Shown here: positions 9,321 to 50,224 of the stretch, piece after piece
How positions within the stretch are numbered: position 1 is the first letter of the stretch
How the letters are laid out: every line of letters starts with the position of its first letter
NCBI GenBank assembly: GCA_019894975.1
Contig: JAGXNO010000004.1
Coordinates: forward strand, 61,721 to 125,720
DNA length: 64,000 bases
Source: Promethearchaeota archaeon
Lineage (GTDB): Archaea > Asgardarchaeota > Lokiarchaeia > Sigyniarchaeales > SOKP01
Reading direction: 5' to 3'
Program-made: the position numbers and the translations under genes
The notes under the pieces: generated by a model
Database searches by the model: none
Told to the model about the DNA's origin: nothing
What the model saw: the letters and a program-made list of their open reading frames with translations, nothing else

Positions 9321-10308
9321 ATGACAGTAATAATCCAAAAAAGAGCTTACTTAACAATCGTAGCCGCATCAGTGAGATTTGCTAATGTCCGCATACCTAA
9401 AGATGATTGGTTAGAAGTGAGTGGTATTTTTACAGGTCGAAATGAAGGAAATGATGTTTTGGTTTCTAAAGCTTATCCCATTATGCATCAAGAACTAGAT
9501 AAAGATGCTGTTATCGATCAATACAAATGGTCAGATGAAGACTATGAATCACTTTATGTTATTGATGATGAAGCTTTTTCAAGAGATCCTCCTGAATTTG
9601 TTGTTGGTTGGTGGCACTCACATCCTGGTTTTATTTGAACTGGACTTACCAGACTTCAACTAAAAGGTTATGATGTCACATATCGATATTCGAACCACTC
9701 TCTCTTATCAGCAAAATAATCCTTTAGCAATTTCACTTGTATTTAATCCTCAAAGATTAATAAGACAAATTGAAGTTGCTGATAAAAAGGGAGACCCTGA
9801 TAAACAATTAAAAAATGATCCTGGGTTTAAAATTTTCCGATTAGATGATGTTAATAGTGGAACAGAAGCCTCTTATCATACTGCTGACTTTAAAATTGAA
9901 GAATATGAAAGCATGGAGCAGTTATTAAGGCTTACCCAAAAATTCATTGTTGATATAACTAATTTATTCCCAAAAGAGAAAGTTCCGCAAACTTATGAAA
10001 AAGTTGTGGATGAACGAATAGAACAATTAAACTCATTACTATTAGGTACTGAAGAATATTTAACAACATTAACCCGTCGTGGTGAAAAACATCGGATTCC
10101 CGAGGTACTAGAAAATCAAAATCAAGAAATTAACAGATTTATTGAAGAAACAAATAAGAAGATAGAGTTTATAAGAGAATTTATTGGATATTTAGAATTT
10201 AAAGAAAGAGACACTATAGTTCCTCAAGTGGAAAAGAATTTATCAAAGTGGGACGAGACTACGAAGGGTTTAGGAAAAAAGCTGAAAGATCTTTCCAAAA
10301 AGTTTTAA
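9321..10308 (+). CDS. MPN+/JAMM protease plus helical C-terminus; join(9321..9632,9664..10308), 318 aa after splicing
   Basis: ORFs 9321-9638 and 9670-10308 fuse after removing 9633-9663, giving GWWHSHPGF/KVMMSHID with exact HxH-x7-SxxD spacing. Confidence 0.85.
9633..9663 (+). other. Putative 31-nt BHB/BHL-type intron in mRNA
   Basis: Exon stem CCT/AGG; 4-bp helix GGTT(9627-30)/AACT(9658-61); 3-nt 3' bulge AA^A; 5' site TT^A; internal hairpin GAA-CTGG..CCAG-AC-TTC. Confidence 0.8.
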
Positions 10309-48563: not shown

Positions 48564-49304
48564 TTACATATCATGCAGAACGTTATCTATAGAGAGGACA
48601 AATCCTAACAAGATCCTTCTATCTGTTTCATTGTCGAGTATCCTTAATGCGTATGTATCCTTAAAATCCATTAATCCACCAAGAAATACGTCTCTCCACC
48701 TGTCAGCCTTCTCAATTTCTGCAATTAATTTTCCTGACATGTCAGTAACTTTATAGGACCATCCCATAAATTTACCCTGAGCTTCGAAATACCTTTTTCC
48801 ATTAACATCTTCTAAGTAAAACTTCGGTCGGAAGACAGAAGTTATTTTTTTCTTTATCCTGGCTATCATATTCCCATATGGATCTTTTAAATCCTGAGCT
48901 CCGCGAGCTGAGACAATCTTGGCGTGAATTGTTGCTGCAATAGTACCATCTAATTCGATTAATTCAACTCTGCGTCTTATACTTAAGATAACTCTTTTCA
49001 TCCTCCCTATTACCTGGTTTTTTTCATCTAAGATATCACCGCTACCCCATTTGGGTTTAAATCTGGAGAAGATTTAAATATCCCAGTATTTTTCTTTGAG
49101 AATAAAATAATTGCGGTTAATATCGAATAGTCCCCCAGGACGATCATAAGGTTCAAACCCTAGTGTTGTTATGGGAGTACTTGTTGATGGTGTAGAAACG
49201 ACTTCCCTTTGTTGTTGAGGAGATGGTATTGCTGAACCACATTTCTCACAGAAGTGCTGATTTTCGGGATCTTTTATTTCAGCCCCACAATCTTTACAAA
49301 ACAT
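48564..49304 (-). CDS. Zinc-ribbon plus LURP-one/scramblase (tubby C-like) protein; join of 49304..49080 and 49049..48564, 236 aa after splicing
   Basis: CKDCG..CEKCG N-terminus; spliced junction KEKYWD/WGSGDILDEKNQVIGRMKR; C-terminal DTYAL..RRILLGFVLSID. Confidence 0.82.
49050..49079 (-). other. Putative 30-nt canonical BHB intron in mRNA
   Basis: TGGG[AT^A]TTTAAATCT-TCTCC-AGATTTAAA-CCCA[AA^T]: 4-bp helix TGGG/CCCA, two 3-nt bulges, 9-bp intron stem; contains in-frame TAA. Confidence 0.85.
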
Positions 49305-49453: not shown

Positions 49454-50224
49454 ATGTCAAGTAATAAGATTCCACAGCTACTAAAATTAAAAGATTTCAT
49501 AACACTTATAGGAACAAGCCTTGGAATAATAGCTTTAATTTGTGCGTGTCTTGGTACTCGTGCTACTCTTTCTTTAGGTTTTTTCTTGATCTCAATATCA
49601 ACAGGTACAGATATGATCGATGGGTATATTGCTCGTAAAACTAATACAGTGAATGAATTGGGAAAGGAGCTGGATTCTTTAAGCGATTCTTTAACATTTG
49701 GTATCGCGCCTGCTGTATTAGCTTACCAGAGCTTTAAAACTAACAGTCTCTTTGATATAGTTCTAATAATTGGTGCTATTTGTTTTGCTTTCGGAGCAAT
49801 TCTTAGATTAGCACGATTCAATCTATCGAATGTTCCGGGATACACGGGTGTACCCACTCCAATTAGCGCTTTGCTCTTAATTGTATTTTTTTATGCCAAT
49901 TATTTTTATGCTTTTGGGATGGGAGGTATAACATATCCATTTCTTGAAATCGCTTATTATTTACTACCGTTTATTATGATTATGATTGCTTGGTTTAATA
50001 TCACTACATTTATCAGTTTCGGTGAAAAAGACAAAACTGTTTATATAGTATTTCTGATCCTCGCACCTTTTTGTCCAATTTTCGGCATTATTGGTGTTTT
50101 GAACCCGAATTTCTTAGTTTCAATGATCGTTTCAGTTTTCTTTTTGAGTACTTTTCTATTTGCTCTAATTTTCATTTTTCGAGGATTTTTCTTATATAGG
50201 TCAAATAAAAAAAAGAACAAGTAA
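49454..50224 (+). CDS. CDP-alcohol phosphatidyltransferase, PssA/archaetidylserine synthase-like
   Basis: DMIDGYIARK..GKELDSLSDSLTFGIAPA, LRLARFN, GVPTP. Confidence 0.85.
   Translation: MSSNKIPQLLKLKDFITLIGTSLGIIALICACLGTRATLSLGFFLISISTGTDMIDGYIARKTNTVNELGKELDSLSDSLTFGIAPAVLAYQSFKTNSLFDIVLIIGAICFAFGAILRLARFNLSNVPGYTGVPTPISALLLIVFFYANYFYAFGMGGITYPFLEIAYYLLPFIMIMIAWFNITTFISFGEKDKTVYIVFLILAPFCPIFGIIGVLNPNFLVSMIVSVFFLSTFLFALIFIFRGFFLYRSNKKKNK

What the first reader, a model, noticed from the sequence alone, without database searches (positions are those of the whole stretch)
49032..49124. Second mRNA intron with a canonical bulge-helix-bulge, in a zinc-ribbon/LURP-one (scramblase-like) gene
Seen on the minus strand: ...TAC TGGG AT^A TTTAAATCT TCTCC AGATTTAAA CCCA AA^T GGGGT... 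This gives a perfect 4-bp helix UGGG/CCCA, two 3-nt bulges on opposite strands and a perfect 9-bp intron stem. The exon stem immediately closing the 3' bulge is weak (one C-G pair), but a distal exon-exon helix GAUAUU-A-ACCGC/GCGGUGAUAUC (49113-49124 with 49032-49042) supports it. Cutting after bulge position 2 excises 49079-49050 (30 nt, with an in-frame TAA). This joins the 76-aa and 145-aa ORFs into one 236-aa protein (KEKYWD/WGSGDILDEK). TAA read-through is an unlikely alternative, and the fold independently predicts the boundaries.
Basis: partly seen in the sequence, partly recalled or inferred. Interest (0 to 1): 0.93.

Follow-up and report, generated by a model that had tools for sequence, protein, structure and literature searches.

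The report
tRNA-type mini-intron in Asgard LURP-one gene
A conserved gene of an Asgard archaeon is interrupted by a 30-base hairpin insert shaped like the introns that archaea cut out of tRNAs, and comparison with about 45 related genomes indicates that the messenger RNA is cut and re-joined, which in print is known for only one other archaeal gene.

Summary
On the minus strand, a zinc-ribbon/LURP-one gene (49304-48564) is broken by 30 nt (49079-49050) carrying an in-frame TAA.

- **Exact insert.** All 17 aligned orthologous proteins, and the DNA of the closest intronless ortholog, lack exactly these 30 nt. The junction YWD|WGSG is invariant.
- **Boundaries fit the fold.** The insert boundaries, fixed by the orthologs alone, fall after position 2 of both 3-nt bulges of a bulge-helix-bulge (BHB) fold.
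- **Conserved structure.** Nine other species of the same genus carry a 30-nt insert at the same site. Five of the 9 stem pairs show compensatory changes, and the 4-bp central helix is always paired.
- **No read-through.** Every insert has a stop at its second codon, and all three stop codons occur.
- **Gene still in use.** The exons are under strong purifying selection (dN/dS 0.04-0.07), and the gene is single-copy.
- **Second site.** Eight other species carry a second BHB insert 14 nt upstream. Three of these are 28-29 nt long and shift the frame.
- **Enzymes present.** The genome encodes a catalytic and a structural EndA paralogue, and RtcB.

Best reading: an mRNA intron spliced by EndA and RtcB (confidence 0.85).

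Caveats: no RNA read spans the junction, the exon helix next to the 3' bulge is only 1 bp, and the BHB is not the minimum-energy fold.

The scan has already noted such introns in other genes of this genome.

The parts
48564..49304 (-). Whole interrupted gene: N-terminal zinc ribbon, low-complexity linker and LURP-one (LOR, tubby/scramblase-like) domain. 236 codons after removal of the insert.
   Evidence: ORFs and translation. Pfam Zn_Ribbon_1 in exon 1 and LOR PF04525 at 35.2 bits (cut-off 24.5) in exon 2. 473 homologs, the best 93% identical and 235-241 aa long.
49080..49304 (-). Exon 1 (75 codons, ending in YWD)
49050..49079 (-). 30-nt BHB mini-intron, equal to exactly 10 codons, with TAA at its second codon (49076-49074)
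   Evidence: Absent from all 17 aligned orthologous proteins. Absent from the DNA of the closest intronless ortholog, with a unique gap placement. Present as 30 nt at the same site in 9 other species.
48564..49049 (-). Exon 2 (161 codons plus stop, starting with WGSG)
49082..49085 (-). 5' strand of the 4-bp central helix H (UGGG, exon 1; the W and D codons)
   Evidence: Pairs with 49052-49055. 100% of cells are paired in the 10 carriers, and all changes on the intron side are wobble-compatible.
49052..49055 (-). 3' strand of central helix H (CCCA, inside the intron)
   Evidence: The variants seen in other species all still pair with UGGG.
49079..49081 (-). 5' three-nucleotide bulge. The inferred cut lies between 49080 and 49079.
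   Evidence: The cut after bulge position 2 equals the ortholog-defined boundary.
49049..49051 (-). 3' three-nucleotide bulge. The inferred cut lies between 49050 and 49049.
   Evidence: The cut after bulge position 2 equals the ortholog-defined boundary.
49056..49078 (-). Intron hairpin h': 9-bp stem (49078-49070 with 49064-49056) and 5-nt loop (49069-49065)
   Evidence: Found by MFE folding. Five of 9 pairs have changes on both sides that keep the pair, and 97.8% of cells are paired.
49113..49124 (-). 5' strand of a possible distal exon-exon helix that closes the motif
   Evidence: Found by MFE folding. 93.6% paired in carriers, with one pair switching C-G to G-C. It is also complementary in 17 of 26 intronless orthologs, so it is only suggestive.
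49032..49042 (-). 3' strand of the possible distal exon-exon helix

Best explanation
The 30 nt at 49079-49050 are a bulge-helix-bulge intron in a pre-mRNA.

Proposed mechanism (inferred, not observed):
1. After transcription, the W-D codons of exon 1 (UGGG) pair with CCCA near the 3' end of the insert.
2. A 9-bp intron hairpin stacks on this 4-bp helix.
3. Two 3-nt bulges are left on opposite strands.
4. The genome's two-subunit tRNA splicing endonuclease EndA (one catalytic and one structural paralogue) cuts after the second nucleotide of each bulge.
5. RtcB joins the exons and probably circularises the 30-mer.
6. The spliced mRNA encodes the full 236-aa zinc-ribbon/LURP-one protein. Unspliced mRNA would stop after 76 residues.

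Shown here: the insert, its exact absence in orthologs, the fit of its boundaries to BHB cuts, conservation of the fold with covariation, purifying selection on the exons, and the presence of the enzymes.

Inferred: that cleavage and ligation take place, and that EndA and RtcB carry them out.
For: 1. **Exact 10-codon gap.** All 17 aligned orthologs have the gap, and the junction YWD|WGSG is invariant. The DNA of the closest intronless ortholog shows one 30-nt gap with a unique placement.
2. **Register fits.** That placement equals the cuts after position 2 of both bulges. The BHB register has no freedom left to adjust.
3. **Same insert in nine other species.** Nine further same-genus genomes carry a 30-nt insert at the same site. 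For the named BHB structure, 96.4% of cells are paired, against 29-53% when the partners are slid. Five of 9 stem pairs have compensatory double changes, H is 100% paired, and 0 of 500 shuffles reach the observed covariation score.
4. **All three stops occur.** All ten inserts have a stop at codon 2: TAA five times, TAG four times, TGA once. No single recoding or read-through explains this.
5. **Exons under selection.** After removal of the inserts, no stop remains in any same-genus ortholog examined. dN/dS is 0.04-0.07, including between two carriers at dS 0.89. The insert diverges less (mean p-distance 0.31) than third codon positions (0.48).
6. **Single copy.** The gene gives one match in this genome and in each carrier.
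7. **A second site.** A second insert site 14 nt upstream in 8 other species has the same H-plus-bulges register. Insert lengths are 27-30 nt, including 28 and 29 nt, which shift the frame and cannot be translated through.
8. **Enzymes present.** There are two EndA paralogues. One keeps the Tyr/His/Lys positions and aligns to the catalytic repeat. The other lacks Tyr and His and aligns to the structural repeat. RtcB is present. Published work assigns Asgard archaea an (alpha-beta)2 EndA with the loop linked to broad substrate range (PMC5829648).
9. **Other broken genes in this genome.** A census with a mirror-image control found three other ~30-nt BHB inserts that break long reading frames, against none for the mirror motif.
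Against: - No RNA evidence exists. The only RNA-library contigs that lay on the gene come from relatives and stop short of the junction.
- The exon helix adjacent to the 3' bulge is one base pair, so the motif is relaxed on the exon side.
- The BHB conformation lies 4.8 kcal/mol above the minimum-energy fold. RNAalifold prefers other partners for the UGGG and CCC runs.
- The wobble-compatible changes in H fit that alternative pairing equally well.
- Shuffle controls overstate significance for related sequences.
Confidence: 0.85

Rival explanations
1. Pseudogene: a small palindromic DNA insertion (a miniature mobile element or a replication slip) has inactivated the gene, and nothing removes it.
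For: An in-frame TAA truncates the product at 76 residues. The closest relatives on the gene tree lack the insert. No spliced RNA has been seen.
Against: Ten species keep the same 30-nt insert with compensatory stem changes. The exons have dN/dS of 0.04-0.07 with no other lesion. The insert is more conserved than synonymous sites. There is one copy of the element in the genome and no enriched sequence family. There is no second copy of the gene.
Confidence: 0.04
2. The insert is translated: stop-codon read-through or recoding yields a 246-aa protein with a 10-residue loop.
For: The insert is exactly 10 codons long and in frame in all ten carriers.
Against: The stop at insert codon 2 is TAA, TAG or TGA depending on the species. 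One carrier has a second stop in its insert. The 'peptide' is not conserved, whereas the base pairing is. At the neighbouring site, inserts of 28 and 29 nt shift the frame.
Confidence: 0.02
3. Programmed translational bypassing: the ribosome hops over the hairpin, as in phage T4 gene 60, without any RNA processing.
For: A stop codon lies one codon after the last exon codon, and a stable hairpin follows it. This is superficially like the gene 60 gap (recalled from the literature, not tested here).
Against: There is no matching take-off and landing codon pair. GAU precedes the gap and AAA ends it. The conserved features are the 4-bp helix and the two 3-nt bulges in EndA register, which bypassing does not need.
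Confidence: 0.03
4. The insert is removed at RNA level, but by a nuclease other than EndA, or by EndA only with help from the distal helix or another factor.
For: The adjacent exon helix is 1 bp, and the BHB is not the minimum-energy fold. A distal exon helix is predicted and partly covaries.
Against: The cut positions, bulge sizes and helix length are exactly those of EndA substrates in 10 of 10 carriers at this site, and also at the second site. The two-subunit EndA type is reported to accept relaxed motifs outside tRNA (PMC2738675, PMC5829648).
Confidence: 0.06

Closest known systems
BHB intron of the cbf5 (pseudouridine synthase) pre-mRNA in Crenarchaeota (Watanabe 2002; Yoshinari 2006; Yokobori 2009, PMC2738675)
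   Same: [quoted passage not shown] Both occur in hosts with a hetero-oligomeric EndA and show a patchy presence or absence among relatives, read as gain and loss.
   Different: The gene (zinc-ribbon/LURP-one) and the phylum (Loki-type Asgard) differ. The architecture here is a uniform 30 nt. There are two alternative sites 14 nt apart that never occur together. Splicing of cbf5 was shown experimentally, whereas here it is inferred.
Archaeal tRNA and rRNA BHB introns (hBHBh' motif, and the relaxed HBh' form)
   Same: Two 3-nt bulges lie on opposite strands of a 4-bp helix, with a cut after bulge position 2. One strand of H comes from the exon and the other from the intron. An intron hairpin h' is present. 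The presumed enzymes are the same (EndA, RtcB).
   Different: The substrate is an mRNA with no tRNA body to position it. The exon helix h next to the 3' bulge is 1 bp, and a helix about 30 nt further out may replace it.
Unconventional HAC1/XBP1 mRNA splicing in eukaryotes (Ire1 nuclease, with tRNA ligase or RtcB)
   Same: Both involve protein-only excision of a very small intron from an mRNA at two structured sites. Ligation is by the tRNA-splicing ligase. The unspliced message gives a different or truncated product.
   Different: The nuclease is Ire1, which recognises stem-loops, not EndA on a BHB. That system is stress-regulated, and no regulation is shown here. This comparison rests on recalled literature and was not tested.

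Membership tests
Archaeal BHB intron (EndA substrate) | [quoted passage not shown] | tested here: met
   Present in the window. Present in 10 of 10 carriers, with H 100% paired.
Archaeal BHB intron (EndA substrate) | Cuts within the bulges give a functional, precisely joined product | tested here: met
   Cuts after bulge position 2 reproduce the intronless ortholog junction exactly. The spliced reading frames have no stop.
Archaeal BHB intron (EndA substrate) | Flanking helix h' on the intron side | tested here: met
   A 9-bp stem, with 5 pairs showing compensatory changes.
Archaeal BHB intron (EndA substrate) | Flanking helix h on the exon side, adjacent to the bulge (strict hBHBh') | tested here: not met
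   Only one C-G or U-G pair is adjacent. A distal 11-bp exon helix may substitute, but it is only suggestive. The motif is therefore the relaxed HBh' form, not the strict one.
Archaeal BHB intron (EndA substrate) | The host encodes EndA of a type that accepts relaxed motifs, and an RtcB ligase | tested here: met
   A catalytic and a structural EndA paralogue are present, and so is RtcB. The specificity loop itself was not examined.
Archaeal BHB intron (EndA substrate) | Excision observed in RNA (spliced junction, or a circular or linear intron) | tested here: inconclusive
LURP-one-related / tubby-scramblase-like domain (Pfam PF04525) | Match above Pfam's gathering score | tested here: met
   Exon 2 alone scores 35.2 bits against a cut-off of 24.5, over profile positions 32-186 of 187. 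The homologs carry PF04525.
cbf5-type pre-mRNA intron | Located in the cbf5 gene at the homologous position | tested here: not met
   The host gene is a zinc-ribbon/LURP-one gene. It works like the cbf5 intron but is not a member of that intron lineage.

The most novel reading that the evidence does not exclude
This gene may be a window onto a fast-turnover population of ~30-nt, EndA-dependent mini-introns in protein-coding genes of a Loki-type Asgard genus. Two alternative sites 14 nt apart never occur together. Each is scattered over the gene tree, needing at least 6-8 gains or precise losses. Under this reading, BHB introns are repeatedly inserted at proto-splice sites and precisely erased, for example through spliced RNA. 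The stop kept at insert codon 2 would make protein output depend on splicing, giving either a 76-aa zinc-ribbon peptide or the full 236-aa protein. That would be a regulatory switch analogous to HAC1/XBP1.
Probability: 0.3. Interest if true: 0.9.

Novelty: new member of a known kind. Interest (0 to 1): 0.78.

Why it matters
In the searchable literature, splicing of archaeal messenger RNAs by the tRNA-splicing enzymes is documented for a single gene, cbf5 in Crenarchaeota. Four full-text searches found no report for Asgard archaea.

[quoted passage not shown] Interrupted protein-coding genes that need RNA cutting and re-joining therefore bear directly on how split genes and mRNA splicing could be tolerated before the spliceosome.

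There is also a practical consequence. Gene callers split or truncate such genes: here into 76-aa and 145-aa ORFs. Asgard proteomes and pseudogene counts are biased until these mini-introns are modelled.

This locus offers a compact test substrate. It has 10 natural variants with covarying stems, and a second site nearby.

Tried and rejected
- **RNA evidence.** The single run search found four DNA runs holding the whole stretch (possibly the source of the assembly). RNA-library runs held only small shares. When laid, two contigs from relatives (14 and 19 differences) covered 48748-48894 and 48748-49012. Neither reached the junction, so this says nothing for or against splicing.
- **Plain MFE and RNAalifold folding.** Neither returns the central helix. 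They pair UGGG and CCC with other partners. Because folding programs penalise the two 3-nt bulges, I tested the named structure by pair counts instead.
- **Loose genome census.** With a 6-bp stem and 50 open codons on each side, it gave 118 loci against 106 for the mirror-image motif. That is pure noise. Only the strict version (8-bp stem, 80 codons) separated the two, 3 against 0. It misses this locus because exon 1 is only 75 codons long.
- **Sequence family shared with the other intron in the window.** The shared motif occurs 13 times in the genome against 20 for the reversed control, so no mobile sequence family is shown.
- **Vertical inheritance of the insert.** Intron distance against exon distance gave Mantel r = 0.24, p = 0.054, and Spearman 0.04. 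This is inconclusive.
- **Comparison with this genome's tRNA introns.** ARAGORN finds only 16 tRNA genes, 6 of them with introns, and its boundaries are imprecise. I made no use of this.
- **Known RNA families.** Rfam gave no match at E up to 1. No tRNA lies in the window.

Full report
**What is in the sequence**

On the minus strand a single frame runs from ATG 49304 to the stop at 48566-48564. It is broken only by TAA at 49076-49074.

Exon 1 holds a CxxC...CxxC zinc ribbon (Pfam Zn_Ribbon_1, just under the cut-off). Exon 2 matches the LURP-one (LOR) domain above Pfam's cut-off, from profile position 32 onward, so the start of the domain lies in exon 1.

- UGGG 49085-49082 pairs with CCCA 49055-49052.
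- The 3-nt bulges lie at 49081-49079 and 49051-49049.
- A perfect 9-bp stem (49078-49070 with 49064-49056) closes a 5-nt loop.
- A possible exon-exon helix joins 49124-49113 to 49042-49032.

The arrangement is exon-H, bulge, intron hairpin, intron-H, bulge, exon. This matches my recollection of an archaeal pre-tRNA with an intron after position 37, where exon nucleotides pair with the 3' part of the intron.

**Orthologs**

The read-through translation finds 473 relatives, named as Promethearchaeota, Lokiarchaeota, Thor-, Hod- and Hermodarchaeota. The best are 93% identical and 235-241 aa long. In an alignment of 17 of them, every one lacks exactly the ten insert codons, and YWD|WGSG is invariant.

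The DNA of the closest intronless ortholog (L001, from a metagenome contig) aligns without any other gap. The 30-nt gap can be placed in only one way, between GAT and TGG. That placement is the cut after position 2 of each bulge.

The ortholog comparison fixes the boundaries, and the BHB register then has no freedom. The agreement is therefore an independent test, and it passes.

**The insert is conserved as a structure**

A six-frame search of 154 genomes of the same order finds the gene in 131, as one copy in this genome. About 19 orthologs are interrupted by stops, and all but one of them belong to the same genus.

After fetching those loci, a DNA alignment shows two insert sites.

*Site A* is the site in this window.
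- It is occupied in ten species, always by 30 nt.
- On the gapless alignment of these ten (A3), the named BHB structure has 96.4% of cells paired. Sliding the partners by 1-3 columns gives 29-53%.
- The intron stem has compensatory changes on both sides in 5 of 9 pairs.
- The central helix is paired in all cells. Its exon strand is fixed by the W and D codons, and its intron strand changes only in wobble-compatible ways.
- No shuffle out of 500 reaches the observed covariation score. The sequences are related, so I take the shuffles as indicative only. The slide control and the double changes carry the argument.

*Site B* lies 14 nt upstream.
- It is occupied in eight other species by inserts of 27-30 nt.
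- In seven of the eight, a script that tried every register showed that the exon-restoring boundaries fall in a BHB register. H is AAGG or AAAG with CCTT or CTTT, and both bulges are cut after position 2.
- The eighth insert (27 nt) fell below that script's stem threshold. It fits the same register when read by eye from the sequence printed.
- Three of the eight are 28 or 29 nt long, so they shift the frame.

**The gene is in use**

- With the inserts removed, no same-genus ortholog has a stop.
- dN/dS of this gene against its nearest intronless relatives is 0.04-0.055 at dS of about 0.53.
- Against the nearest other carrier, dN/dS is 0.065 at dS 0.89. The median among carriers is 0.07.
- The insert diverges less than third codon positions (0.31 against 0.48), so it is itself constrained.
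- All ten site-A inserts carry a stop at their second codon: TAA five times, TAG four times and TGA once. One insert has a second stop.

Read-through or a reassigned stop cannot explain this, and a pseudogene cannot explain the selection. No take-off and landing codon pair exists for ribosomal bypassing.

**The machinery**

The genome has two EndA paralogues of about 200 aa.
- One retains the Tyr, His and Lys positions and aligns to the catalytic half of the two-repeat enzymes.
- The other lacks Tyr and His and aligns to the structural half, with a weak match to a 'subunit beta' model.

This fits the (alpha-beta)2 architecture. Kaneta et al. report that architecture for Asgard archaea, together with the loop associated with broad substrate range (PMC5829648, read). 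Yokobori et al. link it to the relaxed motif of the cbf5 pre-mRNA intron (PMC2738675). RtcB is present.

**Distribution**

On a maximum-likelihood tree of the spliced coding sequences, site A needs 8 changes (at least 6 on well-supported branches) and site B needs 8 (at least 7). Neither is more clustered than shuffled labels, and no gene has both.

The nearest relatives of this gene (L001, L005) lack the insert, while the next carrier (L011) differs from it at only 2 of 30 insert positions.

I cannot tell repeated gain at proto-splice sites from ancestral presence with many precise losses or allele exchange. The distance correlation is inconclusive.

**Caveats**

- No RNA read spans the junction.
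- The exon helix next to the 3' bulge is a single pair, so the motif is the relaxed HBh' form rather than strict hBHBh'.
- The distal helix has one pair that switches C-G to G-C, five against five, among carriers. The same complementarity holds in 17 of 26 intronless orthologs, and both strands are coding.
- The BHB conformation is 4.8 kcal/mol above the minimum-energy fold, and RNAalifold prefers alternative partners.

**Context and novelty**

A strict census with a mirror-image control found three other ~30-nt BHB inserts that break long reading frames in this genome, and none for the mirror motif. Two of these correspond to genes that earlier notes of this scan had flagged: EF-1alpha and a dehydratase activator.

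The scan has therefore found this phenomenon before, on other DNA of the same genome. A further candidate lies in this window at about 9633-9663, in a JAMM/MPN gene.

In four full-text searches the only printed case of a BHB intron in an archaeal coding sequence is cbf5. A recent preprint on Asgard tRNA introns does not treat protein-coding genes.

I file this as a new member of a known kind, namely an EndA-type intron in a pre-mRNA. It comes from a lineage and on a scale that make it of high interest.

Noticed in passing
L008, L009, L015, L037, L041, L045, L046, L047 (orthologs of the window gene; the site corresponds to window position ~49094/49093, minus strand): A second BHB mini-intron site lies 14 nt upstream of the window's site, in eight other species of the genus. 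Inserts are 27-30 nt, and three of them shift the frame. It never occurs together with the site-A insert.
   Followed up: partly
window 9633-9663 (+): A 31-nt insert with a TGA at its second codon lies between the HSHPGF and KVMMSHID parts of a JAMM/MPN+ gene. Its H helix fits the BHB register (GGUU with AACU), but the inner stem needs a 2-nt bulge. It resembles the 49079-49050 insert in sequence, but the shared motif is not enriched in the genome.
   Followed up: partly
L044:301-1008 (ortholog in another genus, G021): A single in-frame TAA lies in the variable linker after the zinc ribbon, inside an imperfect hairpin. No insert is evident from the alignment. It could be a third intron site, a real lesion or a sequencing error.
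   Followed up: no
own genome G000 (all contigs): ARAGORN finds only 16 tRNA genes, 6 of them with introns, in a 3.9-Mb genome rated 95% complete. This suggests that most tRNA genes are too interrupted to be recognised.
   Followed up: no
G000 contig C153, minus strand, reverse-complement offset 65133: A hairpin begins with the same 10 nt as the window's insert and has the same stem ends, sitting between T-rich and coding-like flanks. I did not check whether it interrupts a gene.
   Followed up: no
window 49454-50224 (+): The divergently transcribed neighbour is a CDP-alcohol phosphatidyltransferase-like membrane protein. The same neighbour lies beside the intronless ortholog on L001, so synteny is conserved.
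   Followed up: no
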